From Cenarchaeum sp. (GTDB lineage: Archaea > Thermoproteota > Nitrososphaeria > Nitrososphaerales > Nitrosopumilaceae): DNA of 64,000 bases. The position numbers and the translations under genes were made by a program. Below the pieces are notes generated by a model that was not told the DNA's origin, made no database searches, and was given only the letters and a program-made list of their open reading frames with translations. This document shows, one piece after another, positions 27,890 to 42,200 of this stretch. The number at the start of each line of letters is the position of its first letter. Position 1 is the first letter of the stretch. The stretch lies in the NCBI GenBank assembly GCA_965242695.1, contig CBDESU010000002.1, positions 1,504,001-1,568,000 of the forward strand, written 5' to 3'.

Positions 27890-28978
27890 CTACGCCTCCC
27901 CGCCCGCCCCGTCACCGCTTCCGGCCCCGCCCGGCTCGAGGCCCGCCGCGATGCGCAGCGCGTCGACCAGGCCGTCGGCGTACCCCGCGCACAGGACGGC
28001 GACCTCTTCGTCGCCGGCATCAAGAAAGTGGACGGCGTCGTCCAGGTAGCGGCCGGCGCTGTCGAGTATCTCGCCGCGCCGGGGCACGCCGTCCAGGCCC
28101 CGCGCGCCGCCGAGCGCGCGCATCGCCTCCCTGACGGCGGGCACGTACTTTGCGACCATCCTGCGCGGTACGCTCGCGACCCTGTCCGAGTTGCCCTCGG
28201 GCGGGTCGGCGCAGTCCGCCAGGGCGGCGAGCGCGTCGGACTCTGTAAAGTGCAGCGAGCCGGGCACGACTAGCGCATGCGGCGGCCTGCCAAAGTCCCT
28301 GCCGCGCAGCGATGCGACCCTGCCGGCCGCCACCGCCTGGTCGGGCAGGCCTATCCTGGATGCGACCGCAGCGTACGTCGATCCGTCGAACGCGCCGCGC
28401 CACTGCCTGCCCGCGTCGGCCTCGGCTAGCATGTCCATGGCCCGCCCGGGCTCTAGGAAGAAGCCGCCGCCCTCCTCGTCGTACTCTAGCAGGAGGACGG
28501 TGTGGCTGCCGGCTGCGATGCCCGCGCGCAGGATGCGGTGCGTCGAGGCCGCCGCGCCGGCCCCTCGCATTACGGTCGCGACGCGGCCGACCTTGTAGTG
28601 GTGCAGCCCGCACTCGCCGACGATCGCAGTGAGGGCCGACGCGGCGTAGACCGTCCTAGTCGGCACGCCGGCCCGCGCGGCGCGCACGCGCAGCTCCGTG
28701 TGCGTGGTCGCCGCGTACGGGTCGCCGTACGATACGACGGCCACGTCGTCGCCGGCGCCGGCCCTGCGCAGTATCTCCGAGCCGTCCTCGACCATCCACC
28801 TGCGGGCCCACACGAGGCGCCCGCCGGCGAGCCTTTCCACCTCGGACTCGGCCCCCTCCGGCCACGGACTCGTAAACCGCTCGGCGTACACGGCCGCCGC
28901 GCCGGACACGGCCCGGCGCGCATCGCCGGAGAGCGAGCCGGCGCCGGACACGCCGGCGCCGACAAACCAGAGCGTCAC
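27890..28978 (-). CDS. dph5: diphthine synthase with C-terminal DUF357-like domain
   Basis: LWFVGAG, GDPYAATTHTEL, GLHHYKVGR, LHFTE; tail YLDDAVHF...GYADGLVDALR. Confidence 0.92.
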   Translation of the reverse strand: MTLWFVGAGVSGAGSLSGDARRAVSGAAAVYAERFTSPWPEGAESEVERLAGGRLVWARRWMVEDGSEILRRAGAGDDVAVVSYGDPYAATTHTELRVRAARAGVPTRTVYAASALTAIVGECGLHHYKVGRVATVMRGAGAAASTHRILRAGIAAGSHTVLLLEYDEEGGGFFLEPGRAMDMLAEADAGRQWRGAFDGSTYAAVASRIGLPDQAVAAGRVASLRGRDFGRPPHALVVPGSLHFTESDALAALADCADPPEGNSDRVASVPRRMVAKYVPAVREAMRALGGARGLDGVPRRGEILDSAGRYLDDAVHFLDAGDEEVAVLCAGYADGLVDALRIAAGLEPGGAGSGDGAGGEA

Positions 28979-30180
28979 GCCTCGGCCGCCCCGCCGCCGG
29001 GCGCCGCCTCCGCCGCCCTTTTCTTCCGGCCGGCCTCCCTGAGGGCCCTGTTGTCGTGGAGCCTCTTGACCTGCCGCAGCGTCTGCTTTATCACCTCGAT
29101 CCCGTCCAGGTACTCGGAGATCGAGACGGACTCGTTTATCGTGTGCGCCTTGTGCGGATCGCCGGGGCCGTACGTGACGACCGGCACGCTCATCCTGCTG
29201 CCGATGACGTTCATGTCGCCCGTCCCCGTCTTGCGTATGAGCGACGGCCTAGTCCCCTTTACGGCCTGCACGCTGAGGTTGAACGCGCGCACCAGGGGCG
29301 AGTCGTGCGGCGCCTCGAACGCCTCGGTCTCGTCGAGTATCGAGTAGAACGCGTCGACGCCGCGCTCGGCCGAGACGGCCTTTACGACCCGCGATATCCT
29401 CTCCTCGACGTCCTTGCAGCCGGTGCCGACGGGCACGCGTATGTCGATCGTCGCCTCGCAGTCCTTCGGGGTGACGTTGTGGCTCGTCCCGCCGCCTATC
29501 TTGGTGACCGTCGCCGTCAGGGCGGCGGCGCGGCTCGCCCCGGGCTCGGGACCATCCTCACCCTCTAGCTCGGCCTTGATGGCGGCGCAGAACCGCACGG
29601 CCTCCTCTATGGCGTTCTTCGAGAGCCACGGCGCGCTCGCATGCGAGCTGTCGGCCGCGCTCACGCGCAGGCTGATTGCGAGCCTGCCCTTGTACGCTAT
29701 CGTGACGTTCGTGAGGCCGCTCGGCTCGCCGAACACCGCGTAGTCTATGCCCAGGCCGTCGCCCTCGCTTGCCAGGTGCTTGATGCCGGTCGCGTTGCCC
29801 TCTTCGTCGACGGCGCCGACGAAGACGACGGTACCGGCGTCCTCGCCGGCGTCGGCGGCGGCGAGAAGCATGGCGATGAGCGGCGCCTTTGCGTCGGACG
29901 CGCCGCGCCCGTACAAGAGGTCGCCCTCCCTGCGCACCCTGATCTTGCCGGGGACGACGTCCATGTGGCCGCACAGCATCGTCGTCGGCGAGCCCGACCC
30001 CTTCGTGGCGATCAGGTTGCCCACGTCGTCGATGCGTATGTTCTCGAACCCGAGGTCGTCGCACTTGTCGGCCAGGAACTCGGCGAGCGGTCTCTCCGAG
30101 AGGGACGGCGTGTACAGGCGCAGCGCCTTTTCGAGGATCTTTACGGCAAACTTTGGCGAGGACGCCAGCGATCCGTTCAT
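28975..30180 (-). CDS. lysK: [LysW]-lysine/[LysW]-ornithine hydrolase (M20 family)
   Basis: LCGHMDVVPG, GRGASDAK, VDEEG, FGEPSG, TGDMN, YGPGD. Confidence 0.92.
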   Translation of the reverse strand: MNGSLASSPKFAVKILEKALRLYTPSLSERPLAEFLADKCDDLGFENIRIDDVGNLIATKGSGSPTTMLCGHMDVVPGKIRVRREGDLLYGRGASDAKAPLIAMLLAAADAGEDAGTVVFVGAVDEEGNATGIKHLASEGDGLGIDYAVFGEPSGLTNVTIAYKGRLAISLRVSAADSSHASAPWLSKNAIEEAVRFCAAIKAELEGEDGPEPGASRAAALTATVTKIGGGTSHNVTPKDCEATIDIRVPVGTGCKDVEERISRVVKAVSAERGVDAFYSILDETEAFEAPHDSPLVRAFNLSVQAVKGTRPSLIRKTGTGDMNVIGSRMSVPVVTYGPGDPHKAHTINESVSISEYLDGIEVIKQTLRQVKRLHDNRALREAGRKKRAAEAAPGGGAAEA

Positions 30181-31181
30181 TCCCGGCCGCCTCCGCCCGC
30201 CGCGCGCCCTGCCGCCGACGCCGCCGCGGCCTCGGCCGCCTCTGGGCCCGCCGCGTACCCGACCATCATCGCCGCAATGTCGACTTCGCACACCCTCGTG
30301 GTGTTCTTGAACTCGGTCGTGTTGTTGACCTCGTGGACGACGTAGCCGCGGCCGGGATCCTCCATGAGGTCGACGCCGACTATCAGCCCGCCGACGGCGT
30401 CCTTTGCGCGTATGCACAGCTCCTCGAGCTCGCCCGAGACGGCGCACGGCTCGGCCCTGCCGCCGAGGGCCGTGTTCGTCTTCCACGAGCCGTCGCCCGA
30501 GTAGCGGTAGATGGCCGCCGCGGCCCGGTCGCCGACCATTATGACCCGTATGTCGCGGGGCGGGCGCCTTACGAGCTCCTCGATGTAGTGCACGTGGTAT
30601 ATCGGGTACATGGACTCGCGCATGGCGATTATCCCGGCGGCCGCCTCGGGGCCGGACAGCCTCGAGACCATCCTCCCCCAGCTGCCGACGGTCGGCTTGA
30701 TGACGGCGGGGTACCCGCGCCGGCCAAGGGACTCGAGGGCCGCCTGCGCCGAGAATGCGACCGCCGCGTCCGGCGTCGGCACGCCTGCCCTTGCCAGGAG
30801 CGTGTGCGAGTACAGCTTGTTGCCTGCCAGGATGGCCGCCATCATCGGGTTGATCACCGCGCCGCCGACGCCCTCGACGGCCGCCGTCGAGTGGACGTTG
30901 CGGTAGTAGCTGACGCAGCGCTGCAGGACCGTCCCGTACTCGGACGGGTCGACGGTGGCGCCGCCCCCCGCCCCGTCGGGGCCGCGCCCCGAGCCGCCGG
31001 CCGGCAGGCGCCCCGAGTCGAGGTCGACTGCCAGGCCGCGGCAGTCTACCATGCGCACCTCGGCGCCCGCCTTTGCGCCTGCGTTGGCAAGGGCCTTTTC
31101 CTCCCACCTGATCGAGTCGTACAGGACGGTCACGCGCCGCCCCTGCGCGCCGCCGCGGCCCGAGCCGCCCGGCGCCATCAC
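30177..31181 (-). CDS. lysX: LysX ATP-grasp ligase (copy next to homocitrate synthase)
   Basis: LYDSIRWEEK, LQRCVSYYR, KPTVGSWGR, WKTNTALGG, HEVNNTTEFKN. Confidence 0.93.
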   Translation of the reverse strand: MMAPGGSGRGGAQGRRVTVLYDSIRWEEKALANAGAKAGAEVRMVDCRGLAVDLDSGRLPAGGSGRGPDGAGGGATVDPSEYGTVLQRCVSYYRNVHSTAAVEGVGGAVINPMMAAILAGNKLYSHTLLARAGVPTPDAAVAFSAQAALESLGRRGYPAVIKPTVGSWGRMVSRLSGPEAAAGIIAMRESMYPIYHVHYIEELVRRPPRDIRVIMVGDRAAAAIYRYSGDGSWKTNTALGGRAEPCAVSGELEELCIRAKDAVGGLIVGVDLMEDPGRGYVVHEVNNTTEFKNTTRVCEVDIAAMMVGYAAGPEAAEAAAASAAGRAAGGGGRE

Positions 31182-31351
31182 TGCCCCCAGTCCTCGCCGA
31201 CCGTGTCGGCTGGCTTGAGCGTAAATCCCCCGCTGTCCGCCAGCGCGCCCAGCTCAAAGCTCGCGCCGCACTCGGGGCACGTCACGATCTCGCCGCTGAG
31301 GGCGTCGCCGGGCACCGGTATCGCCCCGTCGCACTCGTCACACTTTGCCAC
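31178..31351 (-). CDS. lysW: LysW carrier protein, C-terminus EDWGQ
   Basis: MAKCDECDGAIPVPGDALSGEIVTCPECGASFELGALADSGGFTLKPADTVGEDWGQ*; below the ORF-track size limit. Confidence 0.93.
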   Translation of the reverse strand: MAKCDECDGAIPVPGDALSGEIVTCPECGASFELGALADSGGFTLKPADTVGEDWGQ

Positions 31352-32558
31352 TGCCGCCTCGCTCTCCCGCGCCGCCGGCGCGCCGCCGGCCTGTTATTTT
31401 CCTTGCGATCCTCTCGTCAAGGGGTATCTCCAGCAGGTCGCCCATGCGCATGTCCTTGAGGCCCGCCGCCACGGCGGCAGCCTGCCGCGCGTCGGACGCG
31501 TCCAGGCCCAGCAGCGCCATGAGGTACGACGCGCCCGTCCTGCCCGCAAGCTCGCCGAACACGATCCGCCGCGCGTTGCCGACCTCCCTCGGCGGGACGG
31601 GCTCGTACGCGGCGGGGTTGCGCAGGACGGCGGCCAGGTGGGTGCCGGCCTTGTGCTTGTACGCAGACGAGCCGACGACCGGCTTGGACTCGGGGGTCGG
31701 CAGCGACGTGTACTCGGACACCGTCCTCGACATGTCCTGCAGCATGTCGAGCCTAAAGTCGTTGGGCGACTCGTACAGGTAGTGCAGGGACACGGCGACC
31801 TCGGCCAGCGGCGGTATGCCCGTCCGCTCCCCTATCCCGTCTATCGTGGTGTGCACCTGGTCGGCGCCGGCGTCGACGGCGGCAAGGGCGTTGGCGACGG
31901 CCAGGCCCATGTCGTTGTGCACGTGCACGTCGAGCGGCGTGCTGACCGCGGCGCGCACCCTCCCGACGAACGCGCGCATGCCGGCGGGGCACATGACGCC
32001 GACCGTGTCGGGGAGGCTTATGCGGTCCGCGCCTGCCTCCTCGATCGCCCTGCACGCCTCGATCAGGAACGCCGGGTCGGCCCTGCTGCCGTCCTCTACC
32101 GTAAAGCGGATCTTGAGGCCGTGCGACTTTGCATACTCGACCGTGTCGACGGCCCTGCGCAGGGCCTCTTCCCGGGTTATGCGCAGCTTGTCCCTCAGGT
32201 GGACGTCGGAGACGCCGAGGTACGCGGCGACCCACCTTGCGCCGCACCTCCGCGAGACGTCGATATCCTCCCTCAGGGCCCGCCCGTGGGCGACGATGTC
32301 GGCCGAGAGCGACTGCCCGATTATCGCCTTCGTGGCCTCGGCGTGGTCGGGCGATATGATTGGCGATATCTCTATCTGGTCGACCCCAAAGTAGTCGAGC
32401 AGCCATGCGATCTGTATGCGCTGCTTGTTCGTGAACGACACGCCGGGGTGCTGCTCGCCCTCGCGCAGCGTGCTGTCGAGTATGCGCACGCGCCGGTCCC
32501 TCGACTCGCCGGCCCCCTCGGCGTTGTACGCGCGCGCGTGCCTGTTGTAGTCGGCCAT
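31338..32558 (-). CDS. homocitrate synthase (LeuA/DRE-TIM family)
   Basis: LDSTLREGEQ, LPDTVG, HVHNDMGLA, GIGERTG, HKAGTH; located in the lys cluster. Confidence 0.88.
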   Translation of the reverse strand: MADYNRHARAYNAEGAGESRDRRVRILDSTLREGEQHPGVSFTNKQRIQIAWLLDYFGVDQIEISPIISPDHAEATKAIIGQSLSADIVAHGRALREDIDVSRRCGARWVAAYLGVSDVHLRDKLRITREEALRRAVDTVEYAKSHGLKIRFTVEDGSRADPAFLIEACRAIEEAGADRISLPDTVGVMCPAGMRAFVGRVRAAVSTPLDVHVHNDMGLAVANALAAVDAGADQVHTTIDGIGERTGIPPLAEVAVSLHYLYESPNDFRLDMLQDMSRTVSEYTSLPTPESKPVVGSSAYKHKAGTHLAAVLRNPAAYEPVPPREVGNARRIVFGELAGRTGASYLMALLGLDASDARQAAAVAAGLKDMRMGDLLEIPLDERIARKITGRRRAGGAGERGGSGKV

Positions 32559-32687
32559 GCGCGGCGCGCGCCGGATCCCCCCTATAAAACATGCCTACCG
32601 GCGGTGGGCATTTGCGCGCCGCGGGCGCGATATGGTGCAGATTATGCCCGCCCGGGGCGGAAATGGCCTCTTTTGGGGCGTATTTTG

Positions 32688-33251
32688 TCAGACCACCGTC
32701 TTGAGTATTATGACGGTGTTCGTGTCCGTCACGCCGGGCACCCGCCTCACGGTGTCTATGGTCTCGTTGACCTGGTCGATTCCTGCGGCGCTCATAATAA
32801 TGGCAATGTCGTGCTGGCCGGTAATCTCGTATATCCTCGCCGTCGTGGCGCGCCATGCGCCGCCCGGGCCCCGCCCGCCGCGCCGCCCGGGCCCCGCCCG
32901 CCGCGCCCCGCCGCGCCCCGTTCTCCCGCCCGAGTCCCCCGCGGCAAGGGCCCTGAGGGATGCCGATATCTTTGATATGTCCGACGCCGACTCGGCCGAG
33001 ACGAGGACGATGGCCTTTGCGCCTGCGCCGTCGCCCCGCTCCACCGTGAACCTGACGGCCCCACCGGCGGCCATCCTGGCCAGGCGCTTGCGCGTCCCCG
33101 TCTCGGACATGCCGACCCTCTTGGCGAGCTTTGCGACGGGCATGCGCGCATCGCCGGCGAGCGCGGCGATGATCTCCTCATCGTGATCGGGCGTACTTCC
33201 GCCGGCCGCCGCGGCCGCGGCCGCCCGCGGGGGGCGCCTCCTGCCGGCCAC
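32688..33251 (-). CDS. lysM: Lrp/AsnC regulator LysM
   Basis: DEEIIAAL..DARMP..LAKRVGMSETGTRKRL; IYEITGQHDI; internal Gly/Arg-rich insert. Start is estimated. Confidence 0.85.
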   Translation of the reverse strand: MAGRRRPPRAAAAAAAGGSTPDHDEEIIAALAGDARMPVAKLAKRVGMSETGTRKRLARMAAGGAVRFTVERGDGAGAKAIVLVSAESASDISKISASLRALAAGDSGGRTGRGGARRAGPGRRGGRGPGGAWRATTARIYEITGQHDIAIIMSAAGIDQVNETIDTVRRVPGVTDTNTVIILKTVV

Positions 33252-33258
33252 CGGCGCA

Positions 33259-34482
33259 TCACCTGCGCCCTGGCGCAGCGGCGCCGGACTGCCCCGCGCC
33301 GCCGCCTTCGCCGGACCTCTTTTTCTCCTCTGCGCCGAGCACGTCGTCGAGCGTGTCGACGACGGCGCCCGCATCGTCCCTGGTGAGGACGAGGGGCGGC
33401 AGCAGCCTCAGTATGTTGCGCCCCGAGTAGAGCAGCAGCAGGCCGCGCCTGATCGACTCGAGCAGGACGTCGCGCACCTCGAAGCGCAGCTCGACGCCTA
33501 TCATGAGGCCGCGCCCGCGCACCTCGCGGATGATGCGCCTCTTTTCGCGCAGGCGCTCGAGGCGGCCGATGAGCTCGGCGCCGACGCTCGCCGCGTTCTC
33601 GGGCATGCCCTCGCCGCGTATGGCATCGAGCGTCGCCGTGCCGGCGGCGCACGAGAGCGGGTTGCCGCCGAACGTCGAGGTGTGCTCGCCCCTGCCGAGG
33701 CTCGAGAGTATCTCGGGCCTTGCGAGGGTCGCGCCCATGGGCACGCCGCCGGCGATCCCCTTTGCCAGGCACATGACGTCTGGCGCGACGCCGTCGTGCT
33801 CGGCCGCCCACATGCGGCCCGTGCGGCCGAGGCCCGACTGGATCTCGTCAAAGGCGAGGACGGCGCCGTTCTCGTCGCACGCCGCGCGCGCCTCGCGCAG
33901 GAATCCGTCGGGGGCCGGATAGATGCCGCGCTCGCCCTGGACGGGCTCGGCGATGACCATTGCCGTGTCCCGGCCGACGGCGGCGCGCAGCGCGTCCGCA
34001 TCGCCGAACGGCACGAACTCTACGGGGCCGATCAGCGGCTCAAAGCTCTTGCGGTACTTTGGCCCAAACGTCATCGACAGGGCCCCCATCGTCTTGCCGT
34101 GGTAGGCCCCCCGCATGGCCACGACCTTGCGGCGGCCCGTGAACTTGAGGGCCATCTTGAGGGCCGCCTCGGCCGCCTCGGCCCCGCTGTTGTTCAGGTG
34201 CGCCTGCTCGAGGCCGGCCGGCGCCTCCTTGACGAGCCTCTCGAGGAACGCCTCGCGCTCGGGGCTGTACAGCGACGGGTGGACGGTAACGACCCTGTCG
34301 AGTTGCGCGCGCACGGCGGCGACGACGGACGGGTGGCGGTGGCCGACGAGGGCCACCCCGTACCCAGCCATGCAGTCGATGTACTCTTTTCCGGCATCGT
34401 CCCACACGCGCGTCCCCTCTGCCCTTGCGACCCTCACTGGAAACCTCTGGTAGAGGCCCCCCATGCGCTCGTCCTCAGTCAC
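33259..34482 (-). CDS. lysJ: [LysW]-aminoadipate/glutamate semialdehyde transaminase
   Basis: YIDCMAGYG, NSGAEA, DEIQSGLGRTG, AKGIAGG, STFGGNPL. Confidence 0.93.
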   Translation of the reverse strand: MTEDERMGGLYQRFPVRVARAEGTRVWDDAGKEYIDCMAGYGVALVGHRHPSVVAAVRAQLDRVVTVHPSLYSPEREAFLERLVKEAPAGLEQAHLNNSGAEAAEAALKMALKFTGRRKVVAMRGAYHGKTMGALSMTFGPKYRKSFEPLIGPVEFVPFGDADALRAAVGRDTAMVIAEPVQGERGIYPAPDGFLREARAACDENGAVLAFDEIQSGLGRTGRMWAAEHDGVAPDVMCLAKGIAGGVPMGATLARPEILSSLGRGEHTSTFGGNPLSCAAGTATLDAIRGEGMPENAASVGAELIGRLERLREKRRIIREVRGRGLMIGVELRFEVRDVLLESIRRGLLLLYSGRNILRLLPPLVLTRDDAGAVVDTLDDVLGAEEKKRSGEGGGAGQSGAAAPGRR

Positions 34483-35281
34483 CGCTGATCACCGTGCATC
34501 CGTCGTGCGCGATCGCCGACGATATAGGGTTTTGCCGCGAGCCGCTCGCTATGAGGGCCTCGCCGACGCCCATGCCGAGGGCCTCGCCGGCGGCGAGCAG
34601 CTTTTTCTCCATGCCGGGGCCGGCCTTTGCGCGCGCCTTCTCGGCGCCGCCCCTCGTGAGCGACCCGACCAGCCTGCCCGACTCGTCTAGCAGCCCGTCG
34701 ACGTCCGTTATGAACAGGACGCGGTCGGCGCCGGACGCGCCGGCCACGTACGCGGCGGCCCTGTCGCCGTCGACGTTGAGCAGCTCGTTGTCGGCGCCGA
34801 TCGCGACGGGCGAGACGACGGGGACCATCCCGGCCTCGAGCAGCGACCCGAGCAGCCCCGCGTTGACCGCCCTTATCTTGCCCGTGTACCCCCCGTCGAT
34901 GGCCTGCTTGCGGCCCCTCTCGTTTACGATCACGAGCCGCGCCTTGCGCTCGGCCTCGATCGTCCGCCCGTCGACCCCGGACAGGCCGACGGCGTTGACG
35001 CCGGCGGCCTGCAGCATGCGGACTATCCCTGTGCTGATCCGGCCCGCCATGACCATGGCGAATATCTCGACGGTCCGCTCGTCGGTGTAGCGGCTGCGGA
35101 TGCCGCCCGGCGACGTGACAAACCTCGGCTCGACGCCCATCTGCTCGCACACGCTAGTGACGTCCTTGCCGCCGCCGTGCACGATGATCGCCCCCTCGGC
35201 CGCGGCGACCTCCCTGATGTCGTCGACGGCCGACGGGTGCAGGCCGGAGACGATGCTGCCGCCTATCTTGACTACGATCAT
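34475..35281 (-). CDS. lysZ: [LysW]-aminoadipate/glutamate kinase
   Basis: IVVKIGGS, VHGGG, SRYTD, LLNVDGDRAA. Confidence 0.94.
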   Translation of the reverse strand: MIVVKIGGSIVSGLHPSAVDDIREVAAAEGAIIVHGGGKDVTSVCEQMGVEPRFVTSPGGIRSRYTDERTVEIFAMVMAGRISTGIVRMLQAAGVNAVGLSGVDGRTIEAERKARLVIVNERGRKQAIDGGYTGKIRAVNAGLLGSLLEAGMVPVVSPVAIGADNELLNVDGDRAAAYVAGASGADRVLFITDVDGLLDESGRLVGSLTRGGAEKARAKAGPGMEKKLLAAGEALGMGVGEALIASGSRQNPISSAIAHDGCTVISGD

Positions 35282-35287
35282 CGTACC

Positions 35288-36343
35288 CTACACCGGCGTG
35301 AGGGGCGTGTACCCGAGGCCGGCGTCCTCGTCGAACCCGGCCATGACGTTCATGTTCTGCACGGCAGACCCCGCCGCCCCCTTCATGAGGTTGTCCGAGG
35401 CCGACAGCGAGATGAGCCTGTTGTTGTCCTCGTCGATGTCGAACCCGATGTCGCAAAAGTTCGAGCCGACGACGAACTTTGGGTCGGGGAACTTGTAGAG
35501 GCCCTTCTTGTCCCGGATGAGCCTCACGAACCGCTCCTCGCCGTACGCGGCGCGGTATATCTTCCATATCTCCTTCTCGTCGATGCCGCCCTCGCCGCCG
35601 GCGACGAACGAGTGGTTCGTGCAGAGTATGCCGCGCACCACGTCGACGGCGTGGGGGCTCATCGAGACGCGGATCTTTTTCCCGGCGATCTCGCTCAGCT
35701 CCTGCTCTATCTCGCCCGTGTGGCGGTGCTTTGCCGGCTTGTACGGGCGGATGACGCTCGCCCGCATGGCATGCGACGTGCCGGCGCCCGACCCGGCGCC
35801 CGACGAGCCGATCTTCGAGTCGACGACGATGTGCTCGTGGCTTATGACGCCCTCGCGCACGAGCGGGGCGAGCGCAAGCGTCGCCGTGACGGCCATGCAG
35901 CCGGGGCACGAGACGAGCTTCGCGCCGCGTATCTGCTCGCGGTGCAGCTCGGGCACGCCGAACACCGACTTTGGCAGGTAGTCGGGGTGGGGGTGCTCCC
36001 AGCCGTACCACTTGTCGTAGTCGGCGGGGTCGTGGAGGCGGTAGTCGGCGCTCAGGTCGATCACCTTTACGCCCCTGTCGTACAGGGCCTTTACGATCTC
36101 GGTGGCCGTGCCGTGCGGGACGGCCGTGAATACGAGGTCGCACTTGTCCGAGAGGCGGTCGTAGTCTAGCTCGGAAAAGACGATGTCCGTAAAGCCCTTT
36201 AGGCTCGGGTGGACGCGGTGCAGGTACTCGCCGACGTGCTGGCGCGACGTGACGGCGCCGATCTCGACGTTGGGGTGCGAGATGAGCAGGCGCAGCGTCT
36301 CGCCGCCGACGTAGCCGGATGCACCGATGACGCCGACCTTCAC
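35288..36343 (-). CDS. lysY: [LysW]-aminoadipyl/glutamyl-phosphate reductase
   Basis: VIGASGYVGGE, DLSADYRL, SCPGCMA, DNLMKGAAG; GTG start with a GTTAAATT box 23-30 nt upstream. Confidence 0.94.
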   Translation of the reverse strand: MKVGVIGASGYVGGETLRLLISHPNVEIGAVTSRQHVGEYLHRVHPSLKGFTDIVFSELDYDRLSDKCDLVFTAVPHGTATEIVKALYDRGVKVIDLSADYRLHDPADYDKWYGWEHPHPDYLPKSVFGVPELHREQIRGAKLVSCPGCMAVTATLALAPLVREGVISHEHIVVDSKIGSSGAGSGAGTSHAMRASVIRPYKPAKHRHTGEIEQELSEIAGKKIRVSMSPHAVDVVRGILCTNHSFVAGGEGGIDEKEIWKIYRAAYGEERFVRLIRDKKGLYKFPDPKFVVGSNFCDIGFDIDEDNNRLISLSASDNLMKGAAGSAVQNMNVMAGFDEDAGLGYTPLTPV

Positions 36344-36368
36344 GGGGCGCCGGCCCGTCCCGTGTAAT

Positions 36369-36932
36369 TTAACCTGTATGGGCACGGCGGCCGCGGCGGG
36401 GACGCGGCGGGGACGGCGCCCCTTGGCGCGGCGGCCGGCCGGCCGGGGCGCCCGCGGCGCCGGGATGCGCGGGCGGGCTACCCGGAGCGGCCGCCCATCT
36501 TGGGGCATTCGCATCCCTGCTGGATCCATCCGCCGGCAGGGCGCCGGCCTGTCGCATGCAGAAGCGCGCGGCCTGGACGCGGTTCATCGCACCGGGGCCC
36601 TCTCCCGCGCCGCCGCCGGCCACGCTCCCGTTCCGCCCCGCCCCGCACTCTGCCAGCCTCCCGACCTCGCGCATGACGATCCCGTCTACCTGTCCGATCG
36701 TTCCGTACCCGCAACGCCCAAGGTCAGCCGCGAGCTGCCTGACCTCGGCCAGGCTGCCCTGGCTTCTGAGCACGAAGCGCCACTGGAGGTAGGCATCGAG
36801 GCTGTCGAAGCTGATGGGCATGCCGGGGCTTGCGTATGCGACGCCCTCGGGCAGGCCGATGCTGACCCTCCTGCCGCGGCGGCGCTTTGTCAGCTCGCCG
36901 GCCGCGACCATTGCATCGACCCTCGACCTCAC
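36369..36932 (-). other. possible degenerate HTH-containing ORF inside the lys/arg cluster
   Basis: GISDRNVRSRVDAMVAAGELTKRRRG is wHTH-like, but the 3' half is low-complexity. Confidence 0.3.
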
Positions 36933-36995
36933 GTTCCTGTCGCTAATACCGCCGCCGCGGTTCCGGCGCGCACGGACGCCGCCTCTCCGCCCTTC

Positions 36996-37877
36996 TCACC
37001 TGGCCGCCTGCTCTGCGGCGTACCTGACGATCTCGGCCGGTATGTTCGCGCCCGTCACGGCCGATATTCCCTTGAACTCGACCGTGTTGTTGACCTCGTG
37101 GACGACGAGGCGCCCGTCCTGCGCGAGGTCCTCCATCATGTCGATGCCGAGGACGCCCCCGCCGACTGCATCCGACGCGCGGGCCGCGAGCTCGGCCATC
37201 TCGGGCGTCACCTTGCACGGCTTCGGCTCGCCGCCGGCCGAGACGTTGGTCGTAAACGACCCCTTGCCGGCCTCGCGGTACTCGGCAGCTATGGCCCTGC
37301 CGCCGACCGAGACGACCCGTATGTCGCGCGGGGGGCGGTCGACGAGGCGCTGCAGGTAGTATATGCGGTCGTGCGGCGTGTCGGACAGCTCGCGCATCTC
37401 GGCGACGGCGTCGAGCGTGTCGGCGTCGCGCAGCGGCATGACTCCGCGCCCCCAGCTGCCGATGACCGGCTTGATGACGAGCGGGAGCCCCTCGGACGCG
37501 GCGCACTCGGACGCGGCCTCGCGGGTAAAGGCAAAGTGCGTCTCGGGGGTCGGCACGCCGCTCCCTGCGAGTCGGAGCGTCATGAGCATCTTGTTGCCGC
37601 ACACGGTGGCAGTGGACAGCGGGTTGACCACCGCAAGGCCCATCGACTCGAGGGCGGCCGTGACGTGCAGCCCGCGGATGTAGCTGATGCACCGCTCAAG
37701 GACGGCCTGCGAGCCGCCCCCGAGCCCGATGTCCTCTGGCCCCGTGCGCGTCGACAGCCTGAGGCTCTTTGCATCGACGGTAGCCGCCTCGTGACCCTGC
37801 GCGCGCGCCTCGTCGCGCAGCATCTTTTCCTCGGAGCGGAGGCGGTCGTACACGACGCATATGCGCGCCGACCCTAC
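36996..37877 (-). CDS. lysX: second LysX/ArgX ATP-grasp ligase (start codon unclear)
   Basis: VYDRLRSEEKML, LERCISYIRG, KPVIGSWGRG, HEVNNTVEFKG; first canonical start is GTG 37853. Confidence 0.9.
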   Translation of the reverse strand, partial: VGSARICVVYDRLRSEEKMLRDEARAQGHEAATVDAKSLRLSTRTGPEDIGLGGGSQAVLERCISYIRGLHVTAALESMGLAVVNPLSTATVCGNKMLMTLRLAGSGVPTPETHFAFTREAASECAASEGLPLVIKPVIGSWGRGVMPLRDADTLDAVAEMRELSDTPHDRIYYLQRLVDRPPRDIRVVSVGGRAIAAEYREAGKGSFTTNVSAGGEPKPCKVTPEMAELAARASDAVGGGVLGIDMMEDLAQDGRLVVHEVNNTVEFKGISAVTGANIPAEIVRYAAEQAAR

Positions 37878-38044
37878 TCCCCCCAGTCTTCGCCGACCGT
37901 CTCGGCCGGCTTGAGGTCTAGGCCCCCGCCGTCGGCGGCCGCAAGCTCGTAGTCGGCGCCGCAGTCGGGGCAGGATACGATCTCGCCGGCGTCGGCGTCG
38001 TCTGGCACGGCCAGGGACGCGTCGCACTCTGGACAGCTCTTCAT
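37874..38044 (-). CDS. lysW: LysW/ArgW carrier protein, C-terminus EDWGE
   Basis: MKSCPECDASLAVPDDADAGEIVSCPDCGADYEL...VGEDWGE*; ATGA overlap with argG. Confidence 0.94.
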   Translation of the reverse strand: MKSCPECDASLAVPDDADAGEIVSCPDCGADYELAAADGGGLDLKPAETVGEDWGE

Positions 38045-39243
38045 GCTCGGCGGCGCCCGCCTGCGGCCATTTTATTAGCTTTTGTCGTCGGCAGGCCCCA
38101 CAGCTCGACGAACCCCCTGGCCGAGCGCTGGTCAAAGTCCGAGCCCGACCCGTACGTGGCCGTTCCCACGTCGTACAGCGACGCGTCCGCCCTGCGCCCG
38201 ACGACCCTCATGGACCCCTTGTGGAGCCTGAGGCGGACCGTCCCGGACACCGCGCGCTGGCTGCTCTCGATGTACGCGTCGAGGTCGGCCCTGAGCGGAT
38301 CGTCCCACAGCCCCGAGTAGACGAGGTCGGCCCACTCTGCATCGGCGATCGGCTTGAGCCTGTTCTGGCGCCTCGTGTGGACGGCCTTTTCGAGGTCCTG
38401 GTGCGCCTCGATCAGGCACAGCGCGCCGGGCGTCTCGTAGACCTCGCGCGACTTTATGCCGACCGTGCGGTCCTCGATGTGGTCGACGATGCCGACGCCT
38501 GCCGCGCCGGCCCTGCGGTTGGCGTGCGACACGAGGCGGACGGGGTCCATGGAGCGGCCGTCGATCGCGACGGGGGCGCCCCGCTCGAACCTTACGGTCA
38601 TGTACGCGGGCCTGTCGGGCAGGCCCGACACGCGGACCCACTCGAACGCGTCGTCGGGCGGCTCGGCGTACGCGTCCTCGACGTCGCCGCCCTCTATGGC
38701 CCTTCCCCACAGGTTCTGGTCGATGCTGTACTTTTTGGCCACCGCGTCGATCCTGATGCCGTGCCTCTTGGCAAACTCCAGCTCGGTCGGCCTGTCCAGG
38801 TTCATGTCGCGGACGGGCGCGATGATGGGCAGGTCGGAGCCGGCGCGCAGCGACACGTCGAACCTGACCTGGTCGTTTCCCTTGCCCGAGCAGCCGTGGG
38901 CGAGCGCGTCCGCATCCTCCTCGGCGGCCACCTCTAGCATCTTCTTTGCTATGAGGGGGCGGGCAAGGGCCGTGGCCAGGCAGTACTTTTTCTGGTACAG
39001 CGCGTTCGCCTTTATGGCGGGGAAGATGTAGCCGGACGCGAACTCTGCGCGCGCGTCGATGTGGCGGTGGGCGACGGCCCCGAGGCTCTTGGACTTTGCG
39101 GCGATGCGGCGCGCGCTGTCGCCCTGGCCGACGTCGACCGTGACCGTGACGACGTCCATGCCGTGCTCTGCCTGGAGGTACTTTACGACGACCGAGGTGT
39201 CCAGCCCCCCGCTGAACGCCAGCACGGCCCTCTTTTCCACCAC
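38041..39243 (-). CDS. argG: argininosuccinate synthase
   Basis: LAFSGGLDTS, HGCSGKGNDQVRF, SIDQNLWG, GIKSREVYE. Confidence 0.97.
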   Translation of the reverse strand: MVEKRAVLAFSGGLDTSVVVKYLQAEHGMDVVTVTVDVGQGDSARRIAAKSKSLGAVAHRHIDARAEFASGYIFPAIKANALYQKKYCLATALARPLIAKKMLEVAAEEDADALAHGCSGKGNDQVRFDVSLRAGSDLPIIAPVRDMNLDRPTELEFAKRHGIRIDAVAKKYSIDQNLWGRAIEGGDVEDAYAEPPDDAFEWVRVSGLPDRPAYMTVRFERGAPVAIDGRSMDPVRLVSHANRRAGAAGVGIVDHIEDRTVGIKSREVYETPGALCLIEAHQDLEKAVHTRRQNRLKPIADAEWADLVYSGLWDDPLRADLDAYIESSQRAVSGTVRLRLHKGSMRVVGRRADASLYDVGTATYGSGSDFDQRSARGFVELWGLPTTKANKMAAGGRRRA

Positions 39244-39267: not shown

Positions 39268-42200
39268 TTATCTCTTGCCTCGGGGATGGCCGCCGCCGCC
39301 GGCGGTGGCCGCCTGCATCGCGACGGCCCTGGCCCTGCCGGCGCCCTTGGCCGCCGCGTCCTCGGCACGGGGGCGGCCCTGCGCAGCCAGCCGCCGGCCG
39401 GCCGGCGCCTCTGCGGCGGCCAGCCCCGCCTCGGGGGCAAGCTGCGCGATGCATGCATCGATGCTCTCTATGTGGTGGTCGAGCCATGCGAGCACGTTGG
39501 GGTCGTTCTCCCCCCTGTACAGGCGCAGCGCCTGCGCCCTCTTGCCGGCATAGTGCGACAGGATCGACCCCTCGTACGCCCCCATCAGAAATGCCCCCGA
39601 GATGCAGGCCCTTACGTCCCTGTCGCCGCCAAACCGCGCTACAAAGTCCCTGACGGCGGCAAAGTCGGGCGGCAGGCTGCGCGACAGGCTTGCCGGCCTC
39701 TCGTCGGGCCTCTCCTCTGCCCAGCGCATGACGTCTGGCATGGGTAGCACGCGCGCGGCCGCCCCGGCCTTGATCCACGCGTACAGATGGTGCGCTACTT
39801 GCTTGTCGCCGCCGACCTCGGCGGACGCAAGGCGCGATGCGACCGCATCCCACACCTCGCGCGGCCGCAGCCGCGCCGCCTCTGTGAGCACGTCCAAGAG
39901 TGGGTCGCTGCCCGCCGGCGGCGCAGGCAGAACCGGCAGAGCCGGCGCCGGCGGGCGCCGGCAGAGCCTTGCAATCGCCGCCTCGGCCAGACGCGGTGCG
40001 CAGTCTGGATGCTGCCGGACGAACGCGGCGCAGAGGCCCTCCCATTTGGGCACACCGCCGTGATCTTCTACGGCTGATCCCAAGAGGCTCCCGTGCAGCA
40101 GCACGTCTAGGGCCGGCTGAAGCGGGATGCCGCGGGGGGCGCCATCGCCGCCGTCCGGCGGCTCGCTGGCGGGCAGGTAGCATGCGTGGAGCAGGCCCAG
40201 GGCCGCGGCGCCGGCGGCGGGGTCGCCCCTATGCGACTCGAGCAGTGCGCAGACCAGCGCGGAGAGTGCGCCGTCCGACACGCCGTCGGCAAGTATGCGC
40301 CCCGCGCACAGGACGCCGAGAGACTTGGGACTGAGCCGCCCCTTGGACACGCCCCCTGCCAGCCGCCGCACAGCCCTGTCCGACGCGCCCGCCATGCGCG
40401 TGAGCGCGGGCAGGTGCCTGCACAGCGCGCCGTCCAAGAGTATCCCATCGAGCATCTCCTCCGCCGCCTCGCCGTCGCCGCCGTCCCGCATGCCGCGCAG
40501 GTATCCTCCCAGGAACGACGGCGATGATGCGGCGGCCGCGCGCATGGCGCCGATGGCGGCGGCGGGGATCCGCCGCTGCTCGTCCCTTGTGGCGACTTCG
40601 AGCCCGAACTCGAATGCGCCCTCGGCCGCCCCTTCGCCGTCGCCGTCTTCCGCGACCAGCCAGTCCATGTCGGGCCCCCGCAGCCCGTCGTGCACGGCCG
40701 CATCCGCCAGCCGCTGCAGGTTCTGCCTGGTGCGGTCGGCATGCGCCCTGTACGCATCGCCCCATCCGATCCTCGCGCGCTTCCCGACGCCGCGCCTCAG
40801 CTCGGCGGAAAACCCGCTCCCCTCCACCGAGCCTCGAAGCGCGGCAAGGCGCGCCGCAATGCCGGCATCGATGCGCCCGGACTCGATGTCGAGCAGGACT
40901 CCGATCTGCTCGAGCAGGCGCCGAATGTCGGGCACCCTGCCGGCCGCGTACACCTTCTCGACGATCTCGACGGCCTGCGGCGCGAGCTCGGGCACGAGCG
41001 CGGCCTGCCACAGCGTCTCCACGGCCTGGCCCGCCGCCTCGCACCGCACCTCGTGGTCGGGGTCGCCCAGCGCGGCGCCGCCGATCATTTCTAGAACTCC
41101 GAGATAGTATGCGACGGCCCCCCGGCGGTCGCTGGGGGTCCACGGGTCGGGAATCGGCCGGCCCCCTTCGTAGTTGGGCATCGCAATCGAGTGCTTGCGC
41201 ATCCCTATGACCGCGCCGCAGGCGCGCACTGCCACGCGCCTTTCCTCGGCCGACTCGGAGCGCATTGCGCTCCCGATGACGTCGAGCCTGGCCGGCAGCG
41301 GCGTGGCAGTGGGCGCCGCGGGGCCGGATGCGGCCGGATCGAGGGCGTTGCAGTAGGAGTCGAGCGCGGGGTTGCGGTAGTACCCACTTGCGGAGCCCCT
41401 TGCGCCCTCGCGCGCCGCTGCTAGCCTCAGGAGGAGTCGCATTGCCCCTGCAAACGCGCCCGCGTGCCACAGCATCATCCTCAACGCATGCGCGACGTTC
41501 TCGGTACGGCAGCCAAGGCCGGCGGAAGGATCCTCCCCCTTTGCGCGCCCGAACGCCCTTTCTGCGTATGCTAGCGCAGAGGGGGGATCGATCGAGCTAA
41601 ACGTTAAAAAAAAATCCGCGCCGAGCCTGCTCTTGAGCACCCTGTCGGACTCGAGGAATCCGCCCGGCGCTAGCATGTCCCGTATGATCTGCGCCGTCTC
41701 GGGCGCGTCCTTTGCATACTTGAACATGTCTATGTACGACTGAAAAAGGCGCCGCGATCCCACCTCGACAAGCCGGTCGGGACCTGGAGCCATGCCGGCG
41801 GTGTACGTCTTCCACCAGCCTGCCCACATGTGCAGGTGGAGGAGCTTTGGTGTAATGTAGATCTCGGACTCGCCCTGCAGCACCTTCATGGCGCGCAGCC
41901 TTTCGACCGTGTCCATGAACTGCCCCCTGCTGATGTTGTGGTTCTCCTTAGCCAGCGATGCGACGCACTCGAGCTCGCGCATGTATATGCCCTCTCGCCT
42001 GAGCGTCTTGAAGAGGCTTATCCACCTCAGGACGATCTTGTGCACCTCTGCATCGGCCGATCCCTGCTCGTACCGCCCCGCAATGTGCCTTTCCCACACG
42101 GGCACGCTGACGGGCTGGCTGGAAGCATCGCCCGGATTTTTCCTCAGGTTTTCGCCCACTATGTGCGCCACCCGCGGCGACGGCCTAGAGTAGCCGATCC

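What the first reader, a model, noticed from the sequence alone, without database searches (positions are those of the whole stretch)
30177..38044. Two carrier/ligase pairs, one LysW ending in Gln (EDWGQ) instead of the reactive Glu
Seen: lysW(EDWGE)-lysX follows argG, while lysW(EDWGQ; CAG TGA)-lysX follows homocitrate synthase; lysY/Z/J/K are single copy. Established: LysX/ArgX ligate substrate to the gamma-carboxyl of the terminal Glu of LysW. Gln has no such carboxyl, so the lysine-side carrier needs different chemistry: prior deamidation, transamidation, or RimK-like use of the alpha-carboxyl. It could alternatively be a regulatory decoy. Any of these would give orthogonal Lys/Arg carriers sharing downstream enzymes. 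I recall EDWGQ in other Nitrosopumilaceae but know of no mechanistic study.
Basis: partly seen in the sequence, partly recalled or inferred. Interest (0 to 1): 0.75.

Follow-up and report, generated by a model that had tools for sequence, protein, structure and literature searches.

The report
Glutamine-ended LysW carrier in ammonia-oxidising archaea
The small carrier protein on which this archaeon builds lysine is encoded with a terminal glutamine where the known chemistry needs a glutamate, and the same holds across ammonia-oxidising archaea, some of which have no other carrier, so an undescribed uncapping or attachment step must exist.

Summary
The window carries argG-lysW1(…EDWGE)-lysX1-lysY-lysZ-lysJ-lysM-HCS-lysW2(…EDWGQ)-lysX2-lysK on the minus strand.

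The Gln is not an error:
- It is unchanged in contigs of 4 runs from 4 studies.
- It is present in 79 of 80 Nitrosopumilaceae loci.
- It is present in 96 of 106 homologue clusters.

In Nitrososphaeraceae, 12 of 12 LysW genes read in 8 genomes end in Gln, written both CAA and CAG. Ca. Nitrosocosmicus has one LysW only, and it is Gln-ended. These genomes have a single LysY/ArgC and no ArgJ. The decoy reading and "Q/E makes the carriers orthogonal" are therefore not supported.

Close strains differ only by Q or E at this residue. No LysX, LysK, LysZ or LysY column tracks the Q/E state.

My best reading, at about 0.5, is a pro-carrier deamidated to Glu before the usual gamma-ligation, much like Pup and Dop. 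The deamidase is not identified. No EgtC-like Ntn hydrolase was found, and M20 LysK is the only pathway amidase.

Earlier agents of this scan found Gln-ended LysW on other DNA, always with an Ntn hydrolase replacing LysK. That rule fails here. I found no paper on it.

The parts
38041..39243 (-). argG, argininosuccinate synthase
   Evidence: PF00764 and PF20979; NF001770 at 494 bits (cut-off 334)
37874..38044 (-). lysW1, carrier protein ending EDWGE (GAG TAG)
   Evidence: NF041070 at 87.4 bits (cut-off 75)
36996..37868 (-). lysX1, ATP-grasp ligase of the ArgX-like type; its start codon is unclear
   Evidence: PF08443 and PF22626. TIGR02144 at 267.4 bits, below the cut-off of 275.6. Signature V-E-V-GI read on the alignment to 3vpd/1uc8. 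It falls in the X1 clade of the LysX tree.
35288..36361 (-). lysY (ArgC-type reductase), single copy
   Evidence: tblastn finds one copy in the genome; 82-85% identical in relatives. The ORF runs further upstream; the likeness starts near 36361.
34475..35281 (-). lysZ (ArgB-type kinase), single copy
33259..34482 (-). lysJ (class-III aminotransferase)
32688..33374 (-). lysM-like Lrp/AsnC regulator, with low-complexity insertions; its true start is probably further in
   Evidence: PF13404 and PF01037; NF040947 at 103.5 bits, below the cut-off of 180
31338..32558 (-). homocitrate-synthase-like gene (function inferred from its position)
   Evidence: PF00682 and PF22617 HCS_D2. TIGR02146 at 363.3 bits, below the cut-off of 413.55. 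One paralogue at 44% identity lies on contig C1.
31178..31351 (-). lysW2, carrier protein ending EDWGQ (CAG TGA)
   Evidence: NF041070 at 78.3 bits (cut-off 75); unchanged in contigs of 4 runs
30177..31181 (-). lysX2, ATP-grasp ligase of the LysX type. Its GTG start is formed by the G of CAG plus the TG of TGA. It has a Gly-rich insertion of about 25 aa in the pre-ATP-grasp domain.
   Evidence: TIGR02144 at 289.9 bits (cut-off 275.6). Signature I-I-T-NT. Overlap shown; insertion shown.
28975..30180 (-). lysK, M20 [LysW]-lysine/ornithine hydrolase, single copy; probable ATG at 30180 overlapping the lysX2 stop
   Evidence: PF01546 and PF07687. TIGR01902 at 250 bits (cut-off 163.1); NF003367 at 248.9 bits, below the cut-off of 363. 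One copy in the genome.

Best explanation
LysW2 is a working amino-group carrier for lysine synthesis that is translated as a capped pro-form. Its terminal Gln is hydrolysed to Glu once, after which LysX2 loads alpha-aminoadipate on the gamma-carboxyl in the usual way. LysZ, LysY and LysJ then work on the tethered substrate, and LysK releases lysine and regenerates LysW-Glu. This parallels Pup, which is made as ...GGQ and deamidated by Dop, itself also the depupylase.

Shown here: the Gln is real, inherited, and selected at the amino-acid level. Gln-ended carriers are the only carriers in some cultured ammonia oxidisers.

Inferred: that deamidation happens, and which enzyme does it. The first candidate is LysK, the only pathway enzyme that cuts a gamma-glutamyl amide; LysW-Gln is the smallest such amide. 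Otherwise it is an unlinked amidase.
For: (1) The Gln is functional and selected.
- 79 of 80 Nitrosopumilaceae loci have Gln at the HCS-side carrier.
- 12 of 12 LysW read in 8 Nitrososphaeraceae genomes end in Gln, with both CAA and CAG and both TAA and TGA stops.
- The argG-side paralogue became Gln separately in Nitrososphaeraceae. Its sequence stays of the W1 type.

(2) The Gln-ended protein is indispensable.
- Ca. Nitrosocosmicus has one LysW only, Gln-ended, in 4 of 4 genomes.
- There is one LysY/ArgC homologue per genome in 5 of 5 genomes.
- No ArgJ was found in 5 of 5 genomes.
- No lysA was found in this genome or in its congener.

(3) Q and E are interchangeable without any change in the enzymes.
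- Members of one 90% cluster differ only in the last residue, for example P0165 against P0153 and P0163.
- The LysX2 of the Glu-ended locus L017 is 96% identical to a Gln-partnered one, and differs at none of the columns that are at least 95% conserved.
- No column is disjoint between Q and E groups in LysX2 (87 against 12 sequences), LysK (84 against 13), LysZ (74 against 19) or LysY (72 against 18).
- The tail length from the zinc ribbon to the end is the same in Q and E orthologues.

(4) Repeated E-to-Q changes fit a pre-existing ability to cope with Gln. They occurred in W2 of f1/f14, in W2 of G002, and in W1 of f14. Q also ends 18 of the 115 tailed sequences among the 150 best family representatives.

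(5) Precedent, from my own knowledge and not from a call here: PupQ and PupE both occur in actinobacteria, and Dop acts as both deamidase and depupylase.
Against: - No deamidase is identified.
- The cluster and its flanks hold no amidase other than LysK.
- No EgtC/YafJ-type Ntn hydrolase was found in 6 genomes; the only PF13230 hits are weak ones inside larger ORFs.
- CN-hydrolases occur in Q and E lineages alike: 108 of 121 genomes, including f8 10/10 and f3 8/8.
- M20 deacylases normally hold the alpha-carboxylate of the leaving amino acid, which ammonia lacks (my own knowledge).
- Earlier notes of this scan say that bacterial operons with M20 LysK never have Gln. That argues against a general deamidase activity of LysK.
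- A cap that is removed once per protein lifetime does not readily explain such strong conservation of Gln.
- The lack of covarying columns is negative evidence from few E-lineage sequences.
Confidence: 0.5

Rival explanations
1. Direct use without deamidation. LysX2 (and LysX1 in Nitrososphaeraceae) ligates the substrate to the alpha-carboxyl of the terminal Gln, as RimK does on ribosomal protein S6. The intermediates are then ordinary peptide-linked LysW-Gln-aminoadipate, and LysK acts as a carboxypeptidase.
For: LysX belongs to the RimK family, whose other members make alpha-linked bonds; TIGR00768, the 'RimK family alpha-L-glutamate ligase' model, scores 245 and 229 bits. A permanent amide would explain why Gln is so strongly kept. 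M20 enzymes include carboxypeptidases (my own knowledge). No deamidase was found.
Against: A change of regiochemistry should leave marks in the ligase and in LysZ, LysY and LysK. In Nitrosopumilaceae these would have to handle gamma-linked Glu on LysW1 and alpha-linked aminoadipate on LysW2 with one enzyme set. No column tracks the Q/E state. A ligase 96% identical serves a Glu-ended carrier. Strains differ by Q or E alone. Tail length is unchanged. The change would also have had to arise several times.
Confidence: 0.2
2. Other new chemistry on the amide or the tail. Examples are ATP-dependent activation of the amide oxygen giving an amidine link, loading on the conserved inner Glu or Asp of the EDWG tail, or removal of the last residue.
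For: Nothing excludes it. The pathway works with Gln-only carriers, and no deamidase is known.
Against: There is no precedent in ATP-grasp ligases of this family (my own knowledge). Interchange of Q and E between close strains and the unchanged enzymes fit poorly with a chemistry that depends on the amide.
Confidence: 0.07
3. LysW2-Gln is a decoy, a regulator or an unused relic, and both ligases use LysW1-Glu.
For: In this genome a Glu-ended LysW1 is present in the same cluster.
Against: Ca. Nitrosocosmicus has only a Gln-ended LysW (4 of 4 genomes). The four other Nitrososphaeraceae genomes read have Gln on both carriers. lysW2 is translationally coupled to lysX2 by an overlapping GTG in every one of the junctions displayed, about 45 of 80 loci, and all 80 loci carry [C/G]AG TGA at the end of lysW2. 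The whole protein is conserved.
Confidence: 0.02
4. Sequencing error or private mutation.
For: None.
Confidence: 0

Closest known systems
LysW/ArgW amino-group carrier protein pathway (Thermus thermophilus LysWXZYJK; Sulfolobus LysW with LysX and ArgX; Thermococcus kodakarensis bifunctional LysX)
   Same: The zinc-ribbon carrier has an acidic EDWG tail. The RimK-type ligases carry LysX-like and ArgX-like specificity signatures. The kinase, reductase, aminotransferase and M20 hydrolase are present. A LysM-type regulator and the synteny with argG and a homocitrate-synthase-like gene are shared as well.
   Different: The terminal residue of one carrier is Gln; in Nitrososphaeraceae this holds for every carrier. 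That is the very residue whose gamma-carboxyl bears the substrate in the solved systems. The FEBS J 2025 text read shows aminoadipate attached to the C-terminal E53 of LysW. There are two carriers, each with its own ligase, whereas Sulfolobus has one carrier for two ligases.
Pup with Dop and PafA (actinobacterial pupylation); recalled, not tested here
   Same: A small protein is ligated through the gamma-carboxyl of a C-terminal Glu. It is encoded as Gln in most lineages and as Glu in some. In that system one hydrolase both deamidates the Gln and removes the tag.
   Different: The proteins and ligase fold are unrelated. The carrier here is recycled in biosynthesis and is not a degradation tag. 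No deamidase is known here.
Gln-ended LysW operons with an EgtC/YafJ-like Ntn hydrolase in place of LysK
   Same: The same EDWGQ ending occurs on a LysW in a LysW operon, and deamidation by the release enzyme is proposed.
   Different: Here the usual M20 LysK is present next to lysX2 in every locus that reaches that far. No stand-alone PF13230 hydrolase was found in 6 genomes.
RimK (ribosomal protein S6 glutamate ligase)
   Same: Same enzyme family as LysX (TIGR00768 above its cut-off). It acts on a protein C-terminus.
   Different: RimK uses the alpha-carboxyl and adds glutamates. Whether LysX2 does so on Gln is the rival reading and is not shown.

Membership tests
LysW/ArgW amino-group carrier protein | Zinc ribbon with two CxxC pairs; match to the family models | tested here: met
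   C4, C7, C25 and C28 are invariant. PF21344 at 42.8 bits (cut-off 27). NF041070 at 78.3 bits (cut-off 75).
LysW/ArgW amino-group carrier protein | Conserved acidic tail ...GEDWG | tested here: met
   G52, E53, D54, W55 and G56 are invariant in the alignment.
LysW/ArgW amino-group carrier protein | C-terminal Glu whose gamma-carboxyl bears the substrate | tested here: not met
   The terminal residue is Gln (CAG TGA). LysW1 meets this feature.
LysW/ArgW amino-group carrier protein | Encoded next to a LysX/ArgX ligase within a LysZYJK cluster | tested here: met
LysW/ArgW amino-group carrier protein | Is loaded with aminoadipate or glutamate and carries it through the pathway | not testable with these tools
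   Inferred only, from genomes in which Gln-ended LysW is the sole carrier.
LysX (alpha-aminoadipate-LysW ligase), for lysX2 | Match to the LysX equivalog model above its cut-off | tested here: met
   TIGR02144 at 289.9 bits (cut-off 275.6)
LysX (alpha-aminoadipate-LysW ligase), for lysX2 | Specificity signature F-I-T-NS at T. thermophilus positions 182/192/203/258-259 (PMC12998189, section 6) | tested here: inconclusive
   Read as I-I-T-NT on the alignment to 3vpd/1uc8. Three or four of the five positions are LysX-like, and position 182 is ArgX-like.
ArgX (glutamate-LysW ligase), for lysX1 | Specificity signature I-Y-V-GF | tested here: inconclusive
   Read as V-E-V-GI. It is ArgX-like at 203 and 258, with other residues at 182, 192 and 259. 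TIGR02144 at 267.4 bits is below its cut-off. It sits next to argG.
LysK ([LysW]-lysine hydrolase, M20) | M20 catalytic and dimerisation domains; match to the family models | tested here: met
   PF01546 and PF07687. TIGR01902 at 250 bits (cut-off 163.1). The NF003367 equivalog scores 248.9 bits, below its cut-off of 363.
Pup/Dop-type pro-form activation | A dedicated deamidase converts the terminal Gln to Glu | not testable with these tools
   No candidate was found by neighbourhood, by PF13230 or by the phyletic pattern of PF00795.

The most novel reading that the evidence does not exclude
The Gln is never removed. Ammonia-oxidising archaea build lysine (and, in Nitrososphaeraceae, arginine too) on a carrier linkage different from the gamma-glutamyl amide known from Thermus, Sulfolobus and Thermococcus. 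The likeliest form is an alpha-peptide bond made by a RimK-like LysX, which one set of downstream enzymes accepts beside the gamma-linked form.
Probability: 0.2. Interest if true: 0.9.

Novelty: new variant of a known kind. Interest (0 to 1): 0.72.

Why it matters
LysW-mediated synthesis appears to be the only route to lysine in this genome and its congener, and the likely route to arginine in the ammonia-oxidising archaea examined. These archaea are among the most abundant microbes in oceans and soils. The evidence for this is that no lysA or ArgJ was found and there is a single LysY.

Their carriers are encoded without the carboxyl group on which the whole mechanism, as solved, depends. Two outcomes are possible. 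Either an unknown maturation enzyme stands at the entry of two essential pathways, giving a new control point and a parallel to Pup and Dop. Or the ligase family has a second regiochemistry.

The question can be tested directly in cultured strains (Nitrosopumilus maritimus, Nitrososphaera, Nitrosocosmicus franklandus) by a mass difference of about 1 Da on a 6 kDa protein.

The finding also shows that the link between Gln-ended LysW and Ntn hydrolases, noted earlier in this scan, is not universal.

Tried and rejected
1. Deamidase by neighbourhood. Genes flanking the cluster here and in Nitrososphaeraceae are the following: a TP_methylase/DUF357 protein, a KaiC/GvpD-like ATPase, a metallophosphoesterase, an ACT-domain protein, a cytidylyltransferase, a CTP-dependent riboflavin kinase, and a 1332-aa protein with a weak AAA_16 match. 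None is an amidase.

2. EgtC/YafJ-type Ntn hydrolase (PF13230). I found only hits of 19-28 bits, inside ORFs of 488-721 aa, plus one 197-aa open frame at the start of a contig. This covers G000, G120, G014, G064, G086 and G046.

3. Phyletic pattern of CN-hydrolases (PF00795). They are present in 108 of 121 genomes, in Q and E families alike, so they do not discriminate. Other amidase families were not tried.

4. Covariation of LysX, LysK, LysZ and LysY with the Q/E state. No column is disjoint. Columns specific to f1+f14 do exist (LysK Cys21, LysZ Asn120 and others). However, G002 (Gln) has the E-lineage state at these columns, and L017 (Glu) has the Q-lineage state at the LysK columns. They therefore follow lineage and not the carrier end.

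5. The overlap of the lysX2 start codon as the cause of CAG. It explains the third base (GTG start) but not the first. In Nitrososphaeraceae the genes do not overlap, and both CAA and CAG are used.

6. RNA evidence. No RNA holder was listed for the stretch.

7. The 636-base gap between lysX1 and lysY, with its 187-aa ORF (36369-36932). It has no Pfam or NCBIfam match, no second copy in the genome, and is absent in the congener, where the gap is about 40 bases. It is probably not a gene.

8. Complex prediction, structure prediction and fold search were not used. They return no coordinates, and a model built by likeness to solved LysX-LysW complexes could not tell an alpha from a gamma linkage.


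Full report
**What is there.**
On the minus strand the window holds one cluster:
- argG (38041-39243)
- lysW1 (37874-38044)
- lysX1 (36996 to about 37868)
- lysY (35288 to about 36361)
- lysZ (34475-35281)
- lysJ (33259-34482)
- a LysM-like Lrp regulator (32688-33374)
- a homocitrate-synthase-like gene (31338-32558)
- lysW2 (31178-31351)
- lysX2 (30177-31181)
- lysK (28975 to about 30180)

LysW1 ends ...GEDWGE (GAG TAG). LysW2 ends ...GEDWGQ (CAG TGA). Both carriers pass the archaeal LysW model NF041070, at 87.4 and 78.3 bits against a cut-off of 75.

The whole genome is 3.89 Mb in 2 contigs. It has these two LysW and no other. It has two LysX, and one each of LysK, LysZ and LysY.

**Which ligase does what.**
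A 2025 paper gives five positions that set LysX/ArgX specificity (PMC12998189; I read section 6 and ran one term search of the text). The LysX type is F-I-T-NS, the ArgX type I-Y-V-GF and the bifunctional type Y-I-T-NA.

I read these positions on alignments to the Thermus structures. LysX2 has I-I-T-NT and LysX1 has V-E-V-GI. LysX2 is thus LysX-like at 192, 203 and 258. LysX1 is ArgX-like at 203 and 258.

In a tree of 174 ligases from related loci, the two form separate clades of 99 and 75 sequences. Together with the neighbours (the homocitrate-synthase-like gene against argG), this supports lysine for the Gln pair and arginine for the Glu pair. It remains an inference.

**The Gln is real and selected.**
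- The letters at 31178-31183 are unchanged in contigs of four runs from four studies; three of these runs are recorded as sponge metagenomes.
- A search of 5.8 billion protein clusters gave 106 relatives. Of these, 96 end EDWGQ, 6 end EDWGE, and 4 run on past the stop.
- In 80 Nitrosopumilaceae loci the HCS-side carrier ends in Gln in 79 and in Glu in 1 (L017). The argG-side carrier ends in Glu in all 48 loci that reach it.
- All 79 have CAG TGA. The G of CAG and the TG of TGA form the GTG start of lysX2. This fixes the third base but not the first, so C against G is a choice of amino acid.

**Beyond the family.**
I sampled 121 genomes of the order, in 17 families, and read the carriers of 33 of them.

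- Outside f1 and f14, 34 of 35 carriers in 22 genomes end in Glu. The exception is the HCS-side carrier of G002, whose three family mates have Glu.
- In f14, 12 of 12 carriers in 8 genomes end in Gln, written CAA or CAG and followed by TAA or TGA, without overlap with the ligase gene.
- Exact look-up names these f14 genomes as Nitrososphaera gargensis, other Nitrososphaeraceae and Ca. Nitrosocosmicus.
- In Nitrososphaera the argG-side carrier keeps its own paralogue sequence but has also become Gln-ended. The change therefore happened separately in both paralogues.
- Ca. Nitrosocosmicus has a single LysW, Gln-ended, in 4 of 4 genomes. The other zinc-ribbon hits lack the tail.

**The Gln-ended carrier must work.**
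- The five genomes tested have one LysY/ArgC homologue each.
- None of five has ArgJ.
- This genome and its congener have no lysA. Three others have a lysA-like gene below the model's cut-off, at 236-248 bits against 297.9.

Nitrosocosmicus and Nitrososphaera strains are grown on mineral media (my own knowledge; the GapMind preprint passage seen lists N. maritimus as a prototroph). A genome whose only carrier ends in Gln excludes the decoy reading. It also excludes the scenario in which both ligases use a Glu-ended LysW. Because both carriers are Gln in one family and both Glu in most others, the Q/E difference cannot be what keeps the two carriers apart.

**Q and E are interchangeable in nature.**
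- In the 90% cluster of P0018, 10 of the 15 listed members end in Gln and 5 in Glu. P0165 differs from P0153 and P0163 only in this residue. One Glu form was seen on 96 contigs.
- The ligase beside the Glu-ended L017 carrier is 96% identical to a Gln-partnered one. It has no change at any column that is at least 95% conserved.
- No column separates Q-partnered from E-partnered sequences across the families. This holds for LysX2 (87 against 12 sequences), LysK (84 against 13), LysZ (74 against 19) and LysY (72 against 18).
- Some columns are peculiar to f1+f14 (LysK Cys21, LysZ Asn120). However, G002 (Gln) has the E-lineage state at these columns, and L017 (Glu) has the Q-lineage state at the LysK columns. 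They follow lineage and not the carrier end.
- This is negative evidence from few E sequences. It is still what one expects if every enzyme meets the same chemical species.

**Mechanism.**
An ATP-grasp ligase activates a carboxylate, and a carboxamide offers none. The simplest account of all the above is that the Gln is hydrolysed to Glu once, and the carrier then cycles as LysW-Glu. I put this at about 0.5.

It parallels Pup (GGQ in most actinobacteria, GGE in some) and Dop, which both deamidates and removes the tag (recalled). By that analogy the first candidate is LysK, which cuts the gamma-glutamyl amide of LysW-lysine. LysW-Gln is the same amide with ammonia as the leaving group.

Several things count against this reading:
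- M20 deacylases usually grip the carboxylate of the leaving amino acid.
- No other amidase is linked to the cluster.
- No EgtC-like Ntn hydrolase was found in six genomes.
- CN-hydrolases are everywhere.
- A cap removed once per molecule does not obviously earn such strict conservation.

The main rival, at about 0.2, is RimK-like ligation to the alpha-carboxyl with the amide kept. It explains the conservation. But it needs one enzyme set to handle two linkages in Nitrosopumilaceae, and it needs repeated changes of regiochemistry that left no trace in the enzymes.

**Relation to earlier notes and to print.**
Earlier agents of this scan reported Gln-ended LysW in bacteria and Asgard archaea, always in operons where an EgtC/YafJ-like Ntn hydrolase replaces LysK. 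I did not test their loci. Among the 150 best of 1208 family representatives, 97 end in Glu, 18 in Gln, and 35 lack a readable tail. This agrees that the state recurs widely.

Here the usual M20 LysK sits beside lysX2 in every locus that reaches it. The stated rule therefore does not hold in ammonia-oxidising archaea.

In the paper library:
- 'EDWGQ' gave 0 papers.
- LysW with Nitrosopumilus, Thaumarchaeota, Nitrososphaera or 'deamidat' gave 4, 3, 1 and 1 papers.
- Among these I read passages only in the N. maritimus model paper (PMC6038301) and the GapMind preprint. Neither passage mentions the Gln. The rest I saw only as search listings.
- Subscription papers are not in that library.

**Verdict.**
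This is a real, conserved and functionally unavoidable departure from a defining feature of a well-studied pathway, in abundant and cultivable organisms. The maturation or attachment step is unknown. It is a new variant of a known kind. The decisive experiment is a 1-Da mass measurement on LysW from cells.

Noticed in passing
whole genome G000 against G120: This genome has 3.89 Mb and about 70% G+C. A genome placed in the same genus has about 1.8 Mb, and most of the family has 1.1-1.8 Mb. The stretch is held by sponge metagenome runs. Many proteins here carry Gly/Arg/Ala-rich insertions or tails that relatives lack.
   Followed up: no
window 30177-31181 (lysX2), about residues 58-82: There is a Gly-rich insertion of about 25 residues in the pre-ATP-grasp domain, and an Ala/Gly-rich C-terminal tail. 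Both are absent from all other LysX2 sequences aligned.
   Followed up: partly
window 37850-37880 (start of lysX1): Between the lysW1 stop and the conserved N-terminus (ICVVYDRLR...) there is no ATG, GTG or TTG in frame. The only candidates are an ATA, or a GTG inside the conserved block. The start codon is unclear.
   Followed up: no
window 36361-36996: A 636-base spacer (73% G+C) lies between lysX1 and lysY, with a 187-aa ORF that has no family match. The congener has about 40 bases there. The spacer has no second copy in the genome.
   Followed up: partly
L107 and L123 (Ca. Nitrosocosmicus), argG side: The ArgX-type ligase follows argG directly, without a carrier gene of its own. The single carrier gene lies beside the HCS-side ligase, so one carrier must serve both ligases.
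   Followed up: partly
LysK column 20 and LysZ column 129 of the alignments (window LysK about residue 21 of the trimmed protein; LysZ residue 120): LysK has Cys in all 83 Nitrosopumilaceae and Nitrososphaeraceae sequences but Met or Ala in the 12 others. LysZ has Asn against Asp. These are shared derived states of the two families that have Gln-ended carriers, but they do not follow the carrier end in G002 (either protein) or L017 (LysK).
   Followed up: partly
window 27890-28978 and L107 9575-10687: A TP_methylase plus DUF357 gene follows lysK both here and in Nitrososphaeraceae. This neighbour is conserved and its role is unknown.
   Followed up: no
window 39268-43266: A 1332-aa ORF lies upstream of argG, with only a weak AAA_16 match (20.4 bits, below the cut-off).
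   Followed up: no
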